From an uncultured Treponema sp. (GTDB lineage: Bacteria; Spirochaetota; Spirochaetia; Treponematales; Treponemataceae): a stretch of DNA of 52,078 nt. The stretch is taken from contig CAMWIU010000001.1 of NCBI GenBank assembly GCA_947174385.1, forward strand, positions 1-52,078, read 5' to 3'. Made by a program: the position numbers and the translations under genes. The notes under the pieces were generated by a model. That model saw only the letters and a program-made list of their open reading frames with translations. It was not told the DNA's origin and did not search any database. Positions 4,649 through 32,568 of this stretch are shown here, piece by piece. How positions within the stretch are numbered: position 1 is the first letter of the stretch; each line of letters begins with the position of its first letter.

Positions 4649-4732
4649 ATTGCGAGTAAAAAGCATCGCAAAATGGCGCGTTTCGTCTTTGCGATGCTTT
4701 TCTTTTTTCCCATCTTGTGTTATATTTTCAAA

Positions 4733-5881
4733 ATGAAATTCAAACCAAAAATTTTCGTGCCGATTTTTCTTCTCGTGGCACTCGGCGGATATTTTTTTTA
4801 TTCTGAATTCGCGTCCGCGAAAATTCAAGAAATTCCGTATTCGGAATTTTTCAAAAATGTCGAAGAAAAGAAAATTTCCTCGGCGGAAATTTCCGAAAGC
4901 GAAATTATTTTTACTGATTCGCTCGGAAAAAAATTTAAAACGAAAAATCCTGAATCGCCTTTACTGAATGAATTTCTTTTAAAGAACGATGTCGATGTGA
5001 AAACGCAAAAAAATTTTTCGCAAATTGTTTCGCTTGTGCTGGACATAATTTTCTACGCAATTTTTTTTGGCGCGGCGATTTTCGCATTTCGAAAATTCAT
5101 CTCGCCAAATTCTTTCAAAGTTGTTCGTCGCACTGGCGTGAAATTCAGCGACGTAATCGGAATGGATTCTCTCAAGCGCGACACAGTTCAAATTATGCAA
5201 ATTATGAAATCGCCCGAAAAATTCGCAAAGCGCGGAATCCGAATGCCGAAAGGGATTTTGCTTGAAGGCGCGCCCGGAAACGGCAAGACACTTTTTGCGC
5301 GCGCTTTGGCCGGCGAAGCAAGCGTGAATTTCATTCCTGCAAAGGCCACGGATTTTGAAAGCATGTTCATGGCGATTGGACCTGCGAAAGTGAAAATGCT
5401 TTTTCGCAAGGCGCGGCGTTGCGCTCCGTGCATAGTTTTCATCGACGAGTTCGACGGAATAGGAACGCGCAGAAATTATTCTGGAAGCGCGATCGAAACT
5501 GAAAACACGAGAATCGTCACCGCGCTTTTGAACGAGCTCGACGGATTTGAAACGAACTCGGGCGTTCTTGTGATTGCCGCCACGAACAGCGTTCGCGCGC
5601 TCGACGAGGCTTTAATTCGGCCGGGCAGATTTGACGCGATTTTTTCCGTTCCATTTCCTGATGAAACATCTCGCGAAGAATTGGTGAAAAAATATTCCGC
5701 AAAAAAAAATCCGTCCGCCGAATGCACGGCACAAAAATTGGCGGCAATGTTCAACGGATTTTCGTGCGCAAAAATCGAAAGCGTTTTAAACAAGGCGGCT
5801 TTGATTGCCGCGCAAAATTCCCGCGAAGAATTTTCGCTTGACGATGTGCGCTCGGCAATTTCAGCTTTGGCTCGAGGATGA
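4733..5881 (+). CDS. FtsH-like membrane AAA+ ATPase lacking the M41 protease domain
   Basis: TM-extracellular-TM architecture, Walker A GAPGNGKT, Walker B IVFIDE, ALIRPGRFD; ends after the AAA lid, no HEXXH. Confidence 0.8.
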   Translation: MKFKPKIFVPIFLLVALGGYFFYSEFASAKIQEIPYSEFFKNVEEKKISSAEISESEIIFTDSLGKKFKTKNPESPLLNEFLLKNDVDVKTQKNFSQIVSLVLDIIFYAIFFGAAIFAFRKFISPNSFKVVRRTGVKFSDVIGMDSLKRDTVQIMQIMKSPEKFAKRGIRMPKGILLEGAPGNGKTLFARALAGEASVNFIPAKATDFESMFMAIGPAKVKMLFRKARRCAPCIVFIDEFDGIGTRRNYSGSAIETENTRIVTALLNELDGFETNSGVLVIAATNSVRALDEALIRPGRFDAIFSVPFPDETSREELVKKYSAKKNPSAECTAQKLAAMFNGFSCAKIESVLNKAALIAAQNSREEFSLDDVRSAISALARG

Positions 5882-6816
5882 AAATGTCGCAAGAAAAACA
5901 TCGCGCCAAAAATAATCGAACTCTCACGCTTTCCGAAAACGAAAAAAAATTTTATGCCGAACAAATCGTTCAAGAATTGCGACAATTTTCTGCGAAAGAA
6001 ATTTTGGACAAAATAATTTGCGCCGATTTATTTTCCGCGATGGAATTTCTTCCTGAAAAATTTGTAGATCTTTTGATAATCGATCCGCCGTACAATTTAA
6101 CAAAAAATTTCGGCGCGATGAAATTTTCCAAAATCAGCGATTCTTCGTACTGCGAATATTTGGAATCGTGGCTTCCAAAAATTTTGCGCGTTCTCAAACC
6201 AACGGCGAGCGTCTACGTTTGCTGCGATTGGCAAAGCAGCGCGGATTTGTATTTCGTCCTCAAAAAATATTTGCGCGTGCGAAATCGAATCACTTGGCAG
6301 CGCGAAAAAGGGAGGGGCGCAAAAAGCAATTGGAAAAATTCTTGCGAGGACATTTTTTTTGCGACGGCGAGCGACGAATATTTTTTTGATGTGGATGCCG
6401 TGAAATTGAAACGAGCCGTGCTCGCACCGTACAGACAAAACGGAATGCCAAAAGATTGGAATGAAAGCGACGGAAAAAAATTCCGCATGACGCATCCTGG
6501 AAATTTCTGGGACGACATTTCAATTCCGTTTTGGTCGATGCCGGAAAACACCGATCATCCCACGCAAAAAAGCGAAAAGCTTTTTGCCAAATTGATTTTG
6601 GCAAGTTCGCCCGTGGACGCAGTTGTGTTCGATCCATTTTTGGGTTCTGGAACAAGCGCGGTGGTGGCAAAAAAACTCGGCCGCCATTTTTGTGGCATCG
6701 AAAAAAATTTGGAATATTGTCTTTGGGCGCAAAAACGCCTCGACTTGGCAGAACACGAAAAAAAAATCCAAGGCTACGAAGACGGCGTTTTTTGGGAACG
6801 AAATTCCGGAAAGTAA
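5878..6816 (+). CDS. Orphan beta-class amino (m6A/m4C) DNA methyltransferase
   Basis: DPPY catalytic motif before HPTQK and FDPFLGSG SAM-binding motif; ATGA overlap with the upstream gene. Confidence 0.88.
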   Translation: MKMSQEKHRAKNNRTLTLSENEKKFYAEQIVQELRQFSAKEILDKIICADLFSAMEFLPEKFVDLLIIDPPYNLTKNFGAMKFSKISDSSYCEYLESWLPKILRVLKPTASVYVCCDWQSSADLYFVLKKYLRVRNRITWQREKGRGAKSNWKNSCEDIFFATASDEYFFDVDAVKLKRAVLAPYRQNGMPKDWNESDGKKFRMTHPGNFWDDISIPFWSMPENTDHPTQKSEKLFAKLILASSPVDAVVFDPFLGSGTSAVVAKKLGRHFCGIEKNLEYCLWAQKRLDLAEHEKKIQGYEDGVFWERNSGK

Positions 6817-6958
6817 AATCATTCGCAAAAAGGCTCACGGCGTTCCAAAAAAGGCGGCATTTGAAAATGCGCTTTGTAAAATCTTGCGCGGACGTTTCAC
6901 AAAGCGCGGCACAATTTGCCAAAAATGTGGCATTTTTTTCAATACTCTTTCCGAGCGA

Positions 6959-6987
6959 TTGACACGCGCGAATATATATTGTAGACT
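6959..6987 (+). promoter_or_regulatory. Sigma70 promoter of the repeat lipoprotein gene
   Basis: TTGACA-17 nt-TAGACT, then GGAGG SD before ATG 7028. Confidence 0.7.
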
Positions 6988-7027
6988 TAAAATAACTTTT
7001 AAAAACATTTTTCATTTGGAGGAAAAA

Positions 7028-9902
7028 ATGAAAAACCTATTCGCCTGTATGGGGGGGGGTATTAACAGCTCTTGTTTTTTTAGCTGCCTTGTCATTCTTT
7101 TCGTGCGCTAACAGCGCAGGCTCTGGCTCAGAAGGAAACCCGCAAGATAGCCAATCTAAGATAGACCATTCACTTGGAGAAGAGCTTCCGGAAGATTTGA
7201 AGATTCCGGAAACTGGCAGTTCCGAAAATGAAAATTTCTCCGCAGAAGAAAACGCGGAAGGCATATTCATAACGTTCTCCATTCCTGAAAACACTAACGC
7301 TTACGAACTGTACATCGAAGGAATCGGGCTAGTCACCGAAAACTATGACGTGAGAAATAAGACCGAAGATGACTTTTTCTATCCTTTTCTTACCCCCGAC
7401 AAAGATTATACAATTCGCGTCAAGTTTTTGAAAGAAGAGGTTGAAAAAGACGGATGGAATTTTGGTCGTCCTGAAAACGGAATAATCGGCTATTTTGATG
7501 TGACGGCAAAGGCAGGGTCGCAAAGCAAAGGCGAAGTATCTCTTATACACAAAGGACAAATAGACGTAAAGAAAAACGGCGAATTCAGATTCACGAAAAA
7601 ACCCACATTCCAAAACGAAGATTTGCTTAGCGAAAACGGCAACAAATGGGAAGTAGAGATTGGACTGGTGGAAGGAATTTCTTGGGAGCACGACGCAGAA
7701 CGCAGGACGAAATGGCACACCATGCAAGAAACGATTCCAATCAATAATATTTACGATCCAATCGATTTGTATGAAGACCAAGAAAAAGAGAAAACTGAAT
7801 ACAGCATAGACTTTATCTGCGTCCGCCCGATTCTGAACTACGAATATAAAGACAAGACATACAAATATCAATGGGATAGTTTCGTAAGAGACATTTATTA
7901 TCCGCCAATAGCGAATTCCGACCTTATCAACGGAATATATGTGGAATACCCCGTCCTTCCAGAAAAATCATATTCTCGATGCGACGTGTACATTGACGGA
8001 ATAGGCAAAGTGGCAGAAATGAAAGACGATTCAATAAATTTTTTGGATAGCAGCAAAACATATGCCAGTTTCTTTTATCCTTTCGTTGAACCAGGCAAGA
8101 AATACACAGTCCGCTTTTCATTCAAACGACCTGAACTTAAGGACAGCGAAGATTTCACCATTCCTACGCCGAACGAGACAATCCGTGAAGATTCATACAC
8201 AGTAACAGTGGGCGCAAAAAGCAAGGGCGAGGTGCTTCTCAAATCCAAAGGCAAGGTAGACGCGGCAAGCACAAAACAAGGCAATTTCAAATTCACGGAA
8301 AAGCCCAAATTCCAAAACGAGGAACTACTTGGCAACGACTGGATGATTGAACTAGGATTGATGGAAGGCATTTCTTGGGAACACGGAGACGAGCGCAGGA
8401 CGAAATGGCATTGCACAGTTCAAATTCCAAAAGACAAACTCGACGCGGAAACAAATTTATATAAACAAGGAGCTAAAGAAAGCGACAGCATCGACTGCAT
8501 CTGCGTCCGCCCGATTCTTTTGAACTATGAATATAAAGGCAAAAAATACAGCTATCAATGGGATGGCTTTGTTCACGATGTCTATTATCCGCTGAGAAAT
8601 CCCGATGGAATATATGTGGAACTCGACCTCCCGAAACAACCCTTCTCAAGATGCGATGTAACAATCGACGGAATAGAAAAAGTGGCGGAAGAAGTAAAGC
8701 CGCTCGAAGGAAATCCTGCCCGAGCCAGCTTCTTTTATCCTTTCGTTGAGCCAAACAAAGAATACACGATTCACTTTTCATTCAAAAAGCTCGAACCCGT
8801 GGACAGCGAAGGCTTCACACTTCCTACTCCGGGAAACGACACGCTCTCCGAAGTGAAAATGAACGTAACGGCAGGAGCGAGGTCAAAGGGCGAAGTGCGC
8901 CTGCCATGGGAAAATGTTGGATATCTAAAAGCAGATCCCGATTGCAATATAATACATTTTAAGAAACCCGAATTTGAGAACGAACACCTGCTCGGCAACG
9001 ACTGGATGATAGAAATAGGACTGATGGAAGGAGTTTCTTGGAATCACGGTGAAGAACGCAGAACAAAATGGCATTGCGCAGTCAAGATTCTTCCGAACGA
9101 CATCAATGTAACTTCCAAAAATTTGCGCGATTTACCTTTAGCCCCAGGATACGATGGATGTCCCACACATAATGAGCACGATATAGACTGCATCTGTGTC
9201 CGCCCGATTATGTACTATAAATATGATGGCAAAACATATAAATATCATTGGGACGGCTATGCATCAGATGTTCATTATCCTTTGAACGCAGACTTTGAAG
9301 AAATCGATATAAACGATCCTGCCGACATTGCGAAAATCAAAGGAACGTGGACACAAAGCGGTGAATGGGATGAGACAGAACATTTTCTCGCCAAAGTTCA
9401 CGGAGTTTATAATGAAACGCTGGTCATTGACGATGCCAACGTAAAAACCAGTTATTCTTATACATATACAAAACTTAACGGCAGCGCATTCACCAAAGAG
9501 GAATTAGCTGACATGGTAGATCCAGAACCTTATCTTGCCCCCATTCCTTCGTCAGAAATTGATGCATTTGAAAATGAACTTACCAAAGACGAAAAAATCC
9601 TGAAGTTTGAAAAACACCTTGTTTATTATGAACAAGAACAACCGTACTATCAGTATTATATTTACAAACTTGATGAACATAATACTCTTTCCAATAATGG
9701 CAAAACGCTAACCACAAAAGATGATAGCGAGAGTCCACTTTCTATGCGTTTTGGAGATTATGATTATAGCGGAGATGACCAACAATATACCCGACATTAC
9801 CAATTGAAACTTTTTCAAGACGGGAAACAACTGCAAGTACTCACCTATGGTACAGATGAAGAAGGTTATTATGAATGGACTGACATCTACCAAAAGCAAT
9901 AG
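7028..9902 (+). CDS. Large repeat lipoprotein, frameshifted at a G9 tract (probably phase-variable, OFF in this sequence)
   Basis: The ATG 7028 frame stops at 7111; removing one G from 7051-7059 joins it to the 937-aa ORF and gives MKNLFACMGGVLTALVFLAALSFFSC (lipobox); three ~225-aa repeats. Confidence 0.8.
7051..7059 (+). repeat. G9 homopolymer in the signal-peptide coding region
   Basis: ...TGTAT GGGGGGGGG TATTAAC... Confidence 0.9.
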
Positions 9903-9915
9903 CCTGTAAAAGTGC

Positions 9916-9942
9916 GAACGCCCGACAAATTGTCGGGCGTTC
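9916..9942. terminator. Hairpin terminator between the convergent lipoprotein gene and pyrC
   Basis: GAACGCCCGACAA-A-TTGTCGGGCGTTC followed by T-rich sequence. Confidence 0.75.
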
Positions 9943-30358: not shown

Positions 30359-31576
30359 ATGGCTTTTGATGATGGAAAAAATCTATTATTCGATGAAGAT
30401 TTGTTAAATCAACCAGATTGGAGAGATTTAGAATTTTCATTTCCTCAAAGAAATATTCGACTCGCAACTTGCTTTAGTGGAATCGGTGCTATTGAACATG
30501 CATTCAAGCGTTTGAAATTGAAGCACGAAATCGTTTTTGCAGGTGATATCGATGAGCGTTGTAAGCAAAGTTATTTTGCAAACTATCTGATTGATGAAAA
30601 GAGATGGCATACAGACATTCATGAATTTTCCGCAAAACGGTATAAGAATAAAGTCGATATTTTAGTAGGCGGTGCACCTTGCCAAGCTTTTTCTATGGTC
30701 GGAAAAAGACTGGGGTTGGAGGATACGCGCGGAACGCTTTTTTATGAATTTGCTCGGATAATAAAAGAATGCCAACCGAAACTTTTTATTTTTGAAAATG
30801 TCAAAGGAATCGTAAATCATGACAATGGAAGAACATGGCAAATTATAAAAACTGTTTTTTCTGATTTGGGATATGACATTCACGAGCAAATTTTGAATAG
30901 CCGCAATTATGGAATTCCGCAGAATCGAGAGAGAATGTTTTGCCTCGGGTTCAAAGAAAAAACAAAATTTCAATATCCTGTTCCAATTCCACTTGAATAC
31001 GAAATGTATGATTTCTTAGAAGATTACATTTCAAGCAAATATTTTCTCAAAGACAAAGGTATAAAATTCGTTACCAGCACAAAGAATCGTTTGAAGTGTT
31101 ACACGCAAATTAATGGCGAAATCCAACTCTGCCAAAAAAGAAATCAACAATTTAATTGGCATGGTGATTTTGTTTTTCATCCTGCTTATGCAGAAGAAGA
31201 TTTTGACGAATTCATTTTTGAAGTGAAAGACGTTGAGGAAAAATATTATTTATCAGATAAAGTGGCTAAATATGTTTTAACGCCTGGAACAAAAAATTTC
31301 AAAACCAGCATAAAAACTGATCTGCCAATCGCACGTCCATTGCTACAAACAATGCATAAAATGCATCGAGCGGGCGTGGACAATTATGTAACACACAAGG
31401 GAAGGATTCGAAAACTTACGCCACGCGAATGCTTACGACTTATGGGTTTTAGGGATGACTTCAAAATTGTCGTTTGCGATACTTCTATGTATCAACAAGC
31501 AGGCAATAGTATTGTTGTAGATGTTCTGATTGCATTGTTGAAACAACTTGACATTACAAAATATGGAGAAAATTGA
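30359..31576 (+). CDS. DNA (cytosine-5)-methyltransferase of a restriction-modification system
   Basis: FSGIGA, GAPCQAFS, ENV, PQNRER, RKLTPRECLRLMGF, YQQAGNS; AT-rich. Confidence 0.95.
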   Translation: MAFDDGKNLLFDEDLLNQPDWRDLEFSFPQRNIRLATCFSGIGAIEHAFKRLKLKHEIVFAGDIDERCKQSYFANYLIDEKRWHTDIHEFSAKRYKNKVDILVGGAPCQAFSMVGKRLGLEDTRGTLFYEFARIIKECQPKLFIFENVKGIVNHDNGRTWQIIKTVFSDLGYDIHEQILNSRNYGIPQNRERMFCLGFKEKTKFQYPVPIPLEYEMYDFLEDYISSKYFLKDKGIKFVTSTKNRLKCYTQINGEIQLCQKRNQQFNWHGDFVFHPAYAEEDFDEFIFEVKDVEEKYYLSDKVAKYVLTPGTKNFKTSIKTDLPIARPLLQTMHKMHRAGVDNYVTHKGRIRKLTPRECLRLMGFRDDFKIVVCDTSMYQQAGNSIVVDVLIALLKQLDITKYGEN

Positions 31577-32568
31577 CGATGGAAATTTGCGGAGAAAAAT
31601 TCAAAGTTGAAGACACTTATGATAGCATTATAACAATTCCTGATTGCTTTGTGCTTGGAAAAAACAAACTTGGAGAAGGGCATGGCGAGGCGAAACTTTA
31701 TCTAGGCAGCAAAAATACTATGAGAGCTTTTTTCGGAAACGAAGGATTTTCTGCAAAATGTTTTTTATTGAAAGCGGATTTGCTTGCCTATCTGAACACT
31801 TTGAAGCAAGAATATATTTCGCCTAGTCAAGAATATTTTGGCAAGGAAGTATTTCCATCATTGTGGAAAGAAAGAATGCACAAAGTAAACTCATTGTCGG
31901 ATATTGTTTTTTTTGAAGTTTCTGATCAAAAGCAAATCGTTGGTTCTCGTGGCTATGTAAATTCAAAAAGCGATGGTTACGAATTGATTCGTGAATTGTC
32001 TTTGCCATTGGTAACTTACGTATCTATAATGAAATTGTCAAACAAATCAAATATGCCGATTTTTTATTGGAAACTTTTTGTAGATTATGAAATAATTTCC
32101 GAAAAGAAAAACGGACCTTTAGTTTTTTATTATGGCAAAAAATCAAAGCAAGATGAAATTGTTTCACCTAAAAAAGAAGAGAAATCTGAAGAATATGGTC
32201 GTGCAAGAATAGGGCAAGGAAAATATCGTGAAAAACTTTTGGAAGAATGTCCTTTTTGTCCGATAACAATGCTGAATGAAGAATCTCTTTTAATTGCGAG
32301 CCATATAAAGCCGTGGGCTGTGAGCAACGACAAAGAAAAAATTGACCCAAAAAATGGCTATATGTTTTCTCCGTTATACGACAAACTTTTTGACAAAGGA
32401 TTCATTACATTCACCGAAGAAAAGCGAATGCTTGTTTCAAATTGGCTTTCCATTGCGAATCAAAAAAGACTGAATTTGAAAAATGAATTTTATGTTCCTC
32501 GCTTGCCGATGGATGAAAAGCGAAAATCCTATCTTGAATTTCATCGGGCAAATGTTTTCAAAGGATGA
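31573..32568 (+). CDS. HNH restriction endonuclease (HphI/MnlI-like type IIS candidate)
   Basis: ARIGQGKYRE...CPFCPIT...LIASHIKPW...DPKNG...DKLFDKGFITF; TTGA overlap with the MTase stop. Confidence 0.85.
   Translation: MTMEICGEKFKVEDTYDSIITIPDCFVLGKNKLGEGHGEAKLYLGSKNTMRAFFGNEGFSAKCFLLKADLLAYLNTLKQEYISPSQEYFGKEVFPSLWKERMHKVNSLSDIVFFEVSDQKQIVGSRGYVNSKSDGYELIRELSLPLVTYVSIMKLSNKSNMPIFYWKLFVDYEIISEKKNGPLVFYYGKKSKQDEIVSPKKEEKSEEYGRARIGQGKYREKLLEECPFCPITMLNEESLLIASHIKPWAVSNDKEKIDPKNGYMFSPLYDKLFDKGFITFTEEKRMLVSNWLSIANQKRLNLKNEFYVPRLPMDEKRKSYLEFHRANVFKG

What the first reader, a model, noticed from the sequence alone, without database searches (positions are those of the whole stretch)
6959..7111. 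Poly-G ON/OFF switch inside a lipoprotein signal peptide
Seen: a good promoter, GGAGG SD and ATG 7028, then G9 at 7051-7059. As assembled the frame ends after 27 codons. With G8 (or G11) it reads MKNLFACMGGVLTALVFLAALSFFSC-ANS..., a complete signal peptide with lipobox, into an uninterrupted 2.8-kb ORF. Known: slipped-strand mispairing at G tracts drives phase variation in Campylobacter, Helicobacter and Treponema pallidum. Inference: a contingency locus for a surface antigen or adhesin, captured in the OFF state.
Basis: partly seen in the sequence, partly recalled or inferred. Interest (0 to 1): 0.8.

Follow-up and report, generated by a model that had tools for sequence, protein, structure and literature searches.

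The report
Poly-G on/off switch, gut Treponema lipoprotein
A run of nine G's inside the predicted export signal of a large lipoprotein gene in an uncultured gut Treponema throws the gene out of frame, and relatives carry seven to ten G's at the same spot, some in frame, so it is likely a slippage-driven on/off switch of a well-known kind, one of about sixty such runs in this genome.

Summary
Confirmed. G9 (7051-7059) separates the start codon (7028) from a 956-codon open frame holding a hydrophobic segment and lipobox Cys; 8 or 11 G's would be in frame. It is not an assembly error: contigs from 3 of 6 laid runs (two studies) bridge the tract without a gap. Across 17 homologous 5' ends the tract is G7 (2), G8 (2), G9 (11) or G10 (2). 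Three are in frame; all 11 G9 are out of frame. Two database proteins begin with this leader in frame. The genome has 60 G/C runs of 8-10 (46 G9 against 0.08 expected), in lipoprotein, glycosyltransferase and restriction-modification genes and in promoter spacers, as in Campylobacter, although mutS and mutL are present. Best reading: slipped-strand translational phase variation with OFF as the commonest state. Reversibility and switching rate are untested. The product has three repeats with FN3/Ig-like folds and a C-terminal beta-barrel; 'adhesin' is not shown. Unexplained: 47 of 60 long runs are followed by TA. The scan found this kind of switch before in other gut spirochaete genomes. New member of a known kind.

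The parts
6959..6987 (+). Predicted sigma-70 promoter, TTGACA-17-TAGACT
   Evidence: 10 of 12 matches; -35/-10 layout recurs in homologous leaders
7018..7022 (+). Shine-Dalgarno GGAGG
   Evidence: conserved in the family alignment
7028..7111 (+). OFF-state frame: 27 codons from ATG 7028 to a stop
7051..7059 (+). G9 tract in context AT-G9-TA; in frame at 8 or 11 G's
   Evidence: G7-G10 at the homologous place in 17 loci
7060..7106 (+). Hydrophobic part of the predicted lipoprotein signal peptide, ending in the lipobox Cys (codon 7104-7106)
   Evidence: most hydrophobic window of the frame (KD 2.37 over 15 residues against 0.85 at most beyond residue 30); Cys kept in all 17 homologous leaders
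7032..9902 (+). Long open frame (956 codons) that encodes the body of the lipoprotein
   Evidence: 29 homologous proteins at E <= 0.001 (one of them from this window); no Pfam or NCBIfam family
7257..7919 (+). Repeat unit 1 (about 220 aa, predicted beta-sandwich domains, FN3/Ig-like); its first half differs strongly between strains
   Evidence: replaced stretches in runs X2 and X4
7932..8597 (+). Repeat unit 2 (48% identical to unit 1)
8604..9287 (+). Repeat unit 3 (52% identical to unit 2, 39% to unit 1)
9288..9899 (+). C-terminal domain, predicted beta-barrel (lipocalin/nitrobindin-like, Z about 6-6.5)
9916..9942 (+). Predicted intrinsic terminator (12-bp stem, T-rich tail)

Best explanation
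The G run is likely a slipped-strand phase-variation switch: at nine G's the ribosome starting at 7028 reads only 27 codons, while at eight or eleven G's the frame would run on through a predicted lipoprotein signal into the 2.8-kb body. Shown: the frame arithmetic, the real 9-base length in other samples, length alleles G7-G10 in the family including in-frame ones, and a genome-wide excess of such runs. Inferred: replication slippage adds or drops one G at high rate in both directions; nine is the mutational resting length, so most cells keep the gene OFF and a minority display the protein; the protein is lipid-anchored and probably surface-exposed, and switching it off probably helps against antibodies or phage in the gut. 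What it binds is unknown.
For: (1) Real length: contigs of X2 (6976-7180, 0 gaps) and X4 (6783-7141, sole gap at 6921), and of X5 (6975-7141, 0 gaps), bridge the tract; 3 of 6 runs laid, two studies. (2) Length alleles: 17 homologous leaders from 5 genomes and 4 metagenome contigs carry G7 x2, G8 x2, G9 x11, G10 x2, with 3 of 17 in frame. Two paralogues in G263 with the same coding leader have G8 (in frame) and G9 (out). (3) Database proteins P0011 and P0014 start MKNLFACMGGV and continue into the family body, so natural in-frame alleles of this leader exist. P0025 and P0026 are identical over 541 residues but differ in whether the upstream start is in frame (the DNA was not seen, tract lengths are inferred). 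(4) In run X6 one contig ends at 7058 and the next begins at 7052, each holding exactly eight G's, as expected if G8 and longer alleles co-occur in one sample; a hint only. (5) Genome-wide: G7 5, G8 12, G9 46, G10 2; the same G9 peak in G090, G263, G309, G351 and G001. Tracts sit in lipoprotein 5' ends, an MmeI-type R-M gene and a trypsin-like gene split by the tract, two GT2 glycosyltransferases, DNA methylases and 11 promoter spacers. (6) C. jejuni has the same modal length of nine, with insertions favoured at G8-G9 and deletions at G10-G11 (PMC3401435, passages read).
Against: No raw reads, RNA or protein data were available, so within-population frequencies, reversibility and rate are untested. 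In 0 of 6 laid runs did a contig bridge this tract with an indel. Two of the OFF copies (G090:C29, G309:C12) have a further stop 201-217 codons downstream, which fits decay. The loci are kin and paralogues, not independent. With only two leader lengths, G9 being OFF in both could be chance (about 4 in 9). mutS and mutL are present, which would be expected to lower slippage rates compared with C. jejuni. Surface exposure is not shown; many treponemal lipoproteins are periplasmic (recalled).
Confidence: 0.84

Rival explanations
1. Mutation-prone tract without an evolved switch: the gene is simply being lost at a slippery site, and the OFF copies are young pseudogenes.
For: 14 of 17 leaders are out of frame and 2 OFF copies carry a second stop. 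PMC11868660 section 6 (read) warns that tracts without shown reversion should not be called phase-variable.
Against: The window's 956-codon frame is intact with promoter and terminator. The tract is kept at the same codon in all 17 leaders across five species-level genomes, none interrupted (the search pattern required at least five G's, so interrupted alleles could have been missed). In-frame alleles recur. G9 is about 500-fold over chance genome-wide.
Confidence: 0.08
2. Recoding at the RNA level: RNA polymerase slips on the G9 run, or the ribosome shifts frame there, so a fixed G9 gene makes a little full-length protein.
For: G9 dominates (11 of 17) and is never in frame in this family; three bridging runs all read nine.
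Against: DNA alleles of four lengths exist, including in-frame ones. G9 needs -1 in the 23-nt leader class and +1 in the 21-nt class, which no single programmed ribosomal shift provides. No stimulatory structure follows the tract (z = -0.05). The same runs lie in promoter spacers and on the C strand of genes. Transcriptional slippage could still add leakiness; not tested.
Confidence: 0.06
3. Sequencing or assembly artefact: the true tract is G8 and the gene is intact.
For: Homopolymers are error-prone; this genome has poly-G junk at contig ends (C103, C143), and 8 of 61 long runs lie within 100 bases of a contig end (about 1 expected).
Against: Three independent runs give nine. 14 other G9/C9 runs in the same assembly lie inside long open frames, so the assembly does not add a G systematically. 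The G9 peak recurs in five other genomes.
Confidence: 0.02

Closest known systems
Campylobacter jejuni poly-G/C phase-variable genes (cj1139, cj0031 type IIG R-M, capA; PMC3401435)
   Same: Intragenic G runs that switch the frame; modal length nine; repertoire of surface proteins, glycan-modifying enzymes and R-M genes
   Different: Here 60 runs of 8-10 in an 87%-complete genome against 11-29 runs of 7 or more in C. jejuni; mutS and mutL are present; switching not measured; gene family unrelated; strong 3' TA context, which was not tested for C. jejuni (one primer row seen, cj1426c, is followed by A)
Treponema pallidum poly-G phase variation (tprL, tp0126, subfamily II tpr genes; PMC7864442)
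   Same: Treponeme, poly-G length variation, envelope proteins; 11 tracts elsewhere in this genome sit in promoter spacers as at tp0126
   Different: The tested T. pallidum cases are promoter tracts that tune transcription; this one is inside the signal-peptide coding sequence and acts on translation, in an uncultured gut lineage
Neisseria pilC/nalP-type 5' homopolymer switches (recalled; also named in scan finding e1-1971869)
   Same: G/C run in the first codons of an exported protein, so the OFF state yields only a short peptide
   Different: Unrelated protein and host; not compared by sequence here
FN3/Ig-repeat bacterial surface proteins
   Same: Tandem beta-sandwich domains on a predicted lipid anchor (Z 6-7, rmsd 2.4-3 over 80-90 residues for single domains)
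   Different: No Pfam or NCBIfam match; Z is under the tool's level of 8 for a specific relationship; ligand unknown

Membership tests
SSR-mediated phase variation (criteria of PMC11868660, section 6) | Switch is mediated by genetic variation at a single locus | tested here: met
   Tract length alone sets the frame; G7-G10 alleles, in and out of frame, across 17 leaders; in-frame proteins P0011 and P0014
SSR-mediated phase variation | Tract is in excess of chance for the genome | tested here: met
   46 G9 against 0.08 expected; G7 at expectation, 5 against 5.1
SSR-mediated phase variation | Variants coexist within a population | tested here: inconclusive
   X6 contigs break with eight G's on each side; only contigs, no raw reads
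SSR-mediated phase variation | Reversible switching without selection | not testable with these tools
   Needs culture or a reporter
SSR-mediated phase variation | Switching rate above about 1 in 100,000 | not testable with these tools
   Needs culture, a reporter or deep reads
Spirochaetal lipoprotein (SPase II substrate) | Basic N-region, hydrophobic H-region, lipobox ending in Cys | tested here: met
   By inspection and hydropathy; Cys kept in 17 of 17 leaders; lipobox rule recalled, no signal-peptide predictor was available
Spirochaetal lipoprotein | Lipidation and surface exposure | not testable with these tools
   Inference only; residues 1-40 of the frame are low-confidence, tether-like
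FN3/Ig-repeat adhesin | FN3/Ig-like beta-sandwich repeats | tested here: inconclusive
   Best Z 7.0, none at 8 or more; Atlas hits to fn3 clusters at 0.85-0.87, leads only; no Pfam hit
FN3/Ig-repeat adhesin | Binding to a host or microbial ligand | not testable with these tools
   No data
Programmed ribosomal frameshift | Fixed slippery site with one shift direction and a stimulatory structure | tested here: not met
   DNA length varies, both -1 and +1 would be needed, no stable downstream structure

The most novel reading that the evidence does not exclude
Gut Treponema have evolved a Campylobacter-scale or larger poly-G phasome (40-100 runs per genome) while keeping MutS and MutL, and they do it through a sequence context: G8-10 followed by TA (47 of 60 runs here, 68-85% in five relatives, against 5% after G4-6), on either strand and in promoters alike. 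The TA flank would be a cis element that makes a run hypermutable or hides its slips from mismatch repair, and lipoprotein leaders are tuned so that the resting length, nine, is OFF.
Probability: 0.25. Interest if true: 0.7.

Novelty: new member of a known kind. Interest (0 to 1): 0.43.

Why it matters
The mechanism is textbook, but the host is not: an uncultured gut Treponema with about 60 candidate switches. [quoted passage not shown] 25 of 164 genomes of the genus have 20 or more G8+TA runs (counted by hand). In practice, gene callers truncate or mis-start these lipoproteins, so the surface repertoire of gut treponemes is under-annotated. The TA context is a cheap, sharp test of what makes a G run unstable when mismatch repair is present.

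Tried and rejected
Pfam and NCBIfam (5 proteins) gave no family for the protein. A single-protein search of 40 relatives found no homologue; the alignment search found strong matches in 4 of 337 other genomes of the genus and weak ones (E about 1e-4 to 1e-8) in 16 more, whose 5' ends mostly lacked a comparable tract and were left out. Foldseek on the whole model gave only diffuse multi-Ig matches (TM about 0.1). A single-sequence fold of repeat 1 failed (pLDDT 33) and was not searched. No RNA holder was listed, and no raw-read run. Of 6 metagenome pattern hits, 2 (L004, L008) were unrelated genes without a tract and were dropped. G309:C74 (L039) had no usable 5' end and was dropped. The 12 stretches were not counted again: 11 are titled Treponema sp. 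MAGs and cover ranges already counted, and 1 archaeal hit was not examined. For L005, L103 and L105 only the leader and signal segment were compared, not the body. Loss of mismatch repair as the cause of the G9 excess was rejected: mutL in 40 of 41 genomes, mutS in G000, both in open frames; activity untested. Stop-codon selection as the sole cause of the TA context was rejected because 5 of 5 tracts read as C runs on the coding strand, and the promoter tracts, have it too. Literature searches listed no paper on poly-G frameshift switches in gut treponemes or on a TA context; the library lacks most subscription papers, bioRxiv supplements were not visible, and most hits were seen as listings only.

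Full report
Observation. That frame carries a hydrophobic stretch and a lipobox Cys (codon 7104-7106) right after the tract. Eight or eleven G's would join the start to the long frame. A promoter-like site (6959-6987) and a terminator-like hairpin (9916-9942) bracket the gene. Promoter-like matches are common by chance in this region (10 against 6.0 +/- 2.4), but the arrangement recurs in the homologous leaders.

Organism. The window is contig C1 of a 2.3-Mb, 180-contig genome, 87% complete. The closest named homologue is from a Treponemataceae MAG (P0004, 83% identity). Genomes holding the same leader are titled uncultured Treponema sp. (11 of 12 hits). Holder runs are animal gut metagenomes or coded organisms, and one metagenome hit is titled as from a pocket mouse.

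Is G9 real? Six runs were laid, all as contigs. Three bridge the tract with no gap in it: X2 (6976-7180, 0 gaps) and X4 (6783-7141, only gap at 6921), and X5 (6975-7141, 0 gaps). They come from two studies and differ from the window at other sites. X3 begins at 7060, and X1 shows only a paralogue-like piece. In X6 one contig ends at 7058 and another begins at 7052, each with eight G's. That is the break expected where a G8 allele coexists with longer ones; errors after a G8 run could give the same picture, so it is a hint. No laid contig bridges the tract with an indel. In the same assembly 18 runs of 8-10, 14 of them nine long, lie inside long open frames, so the assembly does not add a G everywhere.

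Does the length vary? Seventeen homologous 5' ends were read at DNA level: 13 from five genomes (this one, G090, G263, G309, G351) and 4 from metagenome contigs. Lengths are G7 x2, G8 x2, G9 x11, G10 x2. Ten have a 23-nt leader (in frame at 8 or 11) and seven a 21-nt leader (in frame at 7 or 10). Three of 17 are in frame (G8, G10, G7); all 11 G9 are out. These are kin and paralogues, so the counts are not independent. At protein level, P0011 and P0014 start MKNLFACMGGV and run on into the family body, so in-frame alleles of this leader exist in nature. P0025 and P0026 are identical over 541 residues and differ only in whether the upstream start is in frame; clusters at 90% identity mix in-frame and out-of-frame N-termini. 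Against the switch reading, two OFF copies have a second stop downstream.

Genome context. Runs of G or C: G6 41, G7 5, G8 12, G9 46, G10 2, against 5.1, 0.6, 0.08 and 0.01 expected for G7-G10 (contig C143 left out; one search gives 47 G9 with it). Relatives show the same peak (G7/G8/G9/G10): G090 4/12/57/7, G263 7/16/49/16, G309 6/25/65/9, G351 8/14/25/1, G001 4/7/22/4. In 24 random members of the genus G9 counts ranged from 0 to 22, so the load is lineage-dependent. By hand classification, 8 of the 60 tracts clearly break a gene: six lipoprotein 5' ends (this one, its paralogue on C2, and four others), an MmeI-type R-M gene and a trypsin-like gene, the last two with the same Pfam domain split across the tract. 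Eighteen lie inside long open frames (two GT2 glycosyltransferases, DNA methylases, a methyltransferase, a formyltransferase, FeoB and others), and 11 lie between a TTGACA-like box and a TATAAT-like box. The rest were not classified. Pfam was run on 83 of the 181 frames near the tracts. This is the repertoire known from C. jejuni, where the modal length is also nine and insertions dominate at G8-G9 and deletions at G10-G11 (PMC3401435, passages). Unlike what that paper suggests for C. jejuni, mutS and mutL are present here.

The protein. It has three repeats of about 220 aa, 39-52% identical to each other, and a C-terminal domain; family members carry one to three repeats. AlphaFold with 27 sequences gave mean pLDDT 79 and pTM 0.42, almost all beta. 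Repeat domains match FN3/Ig sandwiches (best Z 7.0; single-domain matches rmsd 2.4-3 over about 80-90 residues) and the C-terminus matches lipocalin/nitrobindin-like barrels (Z about 6.5); nothing reached Z 8, so only the general fold class is supported. The first part of repeat 1 is replaced by different sequence in runs X2 and X4, which fits diversifying pressure on an exposed part. It is acidic (170 D+E, 106 K+R). A surface-displayed binding protein is the likeliest role; an adhesin is not shown.

Mechanism. Shown: tract length sets the frame, several lengths exist, and such tracts are enriched in contingency-type genes. Inferred: replication slippage moves the tract by one G in either direction, nine is the resting length, and so the gene is OFF in most cells and ON in a minority. 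Rivals are decay at a slippery site (0.08), RNA-level recoding (0.06; no downstream structure, and opposite shifts needed in the two leader classes) and artefact (0.02). By the three criteria in PMC11868660 (section 6 read), single-locus variation is met, while reversibility and rate cannot be tested here. So it works like a phase-variable locus, and formal membership awaits those two tests.

An unexplained pattern. 47 of 60 runs of G8-10 are followed by TA and none by A, whereas only 151 of 3085 runs of G4-6 are followed by TA. The share is 68-85% in five relatives, about 60% in G150 and G268 and 35 of 62 in five one- or two-contig genomes of the genus, so fragmented assembly does not explain it. 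A genome of another family shows no such bias (G035: T after 8 of 29 runs). Some of the count comes from paralogous promoters and leaders, but it holds in unrelated genes and on both strands. It points to a DNA-level effect of the flank on tract instability; this is untested.

Comparison and novelty. The closest systems are C. jejuni intragenic poly-G switches and T. pallidum promoter poly-G tracts (PMC7864442, passages). A genome paper counted G/C runs in treponemes and found the fewest in the commensal T. ruminis, 15 in all (PMC8049484, section 6); this gut lineage has 60. PMC4593590 (passages) excluded homopolymers from its analysis. My searches listed no paper on such switches in gut treponemes, within a library that lacks most subscription journals. 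The scan itself has reported the same kind of switch in other gut spirochaete genomes (e1-1971869, e1-3886543) and nothing for this protein or genome. Verdict: real, well supported, a new member of a known kind; interest 0.43, raised by the size of the phasome and the TA context.

Noticed in passing
G000 genome-wide; G090, G263, G309, G351, G001, G150, G268 and five near-closed genomes: Long G runs are followed by TA far more often than short ones (47 of 60 against 151 of 3085) and preceded by T in 43 of 60; not so in G035 of another family.
   Followed up: partly
L040, L046:969, L055, L058, L059, L067, L084, L085, L088, L089, L091: Eleven G/C8-9 runs lie between a TTGACA-like and a TATAAT-like box, with spacings of 15-20: candidate transcriptional switches like T. 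pallidum tp0126, several before probable lipoprotein or OMP genes.
   Followed up: partly
L043:1742-1749 (G000:C4): MmeI-type restriction-modification gene split by a C8 run inside the methyltransferase domain; a candidate phase-variable R-M system in the OFF state.
   Followed up: partly
L054:2039, L057:1545: In-frame G9 runs in an N6/N4 DNA methylase gene (type III mod-like, by inspection) and a Methylase_S gene: possible phasevarion-type switches.
   Followed up: partly
L052:1514 (G000:C16): Trypsin-like peptidase gene split by a G9 run, with the Trypsin_2 domain on both sides.
   Followed up: partly
G000 genome-wide: Hand-picked classes: lipoprotein 5' tracts are mostly OFF (6 of 8) and glycan/R-M enzyme tracts mostly ON (8 of 9); Fisher p 0.015, post hoc, a hint only.
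   Followed up: partly
window 7141-7511 and 7692-7799: Other strains carry different sequence of similar length here (runs X1, X2, X4), and family members have one to three repeat units: mosaic variation on top of the on/off switch.
   Followed up: partly
L063, L072, L073, L086, L044: A small family of related loci with G8-9 runs in a shared context and 160-190 codon frames downstream, without a Pfam match; gene direction not resolved.
   Followed up: no
L080:2802-2811 (G000:C112): G10 run five bases before the ATG of a long fn3-containing frame, at the place of a ribosome-binding site.
   Followed up: no
window 4673-6816: A 402-aa FtsH-like gene with no peptidase-domain hit overlaps the start of an N6/N4 DNA methylase gene just upstream of the lipoprotein promoter.
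   Followed up: no
window 30359-32568: C-5 DNA methylase plus HNH endonuclease pair in a low-GC stretch (0.38), probably an acquired restriction-modification system.
   Followed up: no
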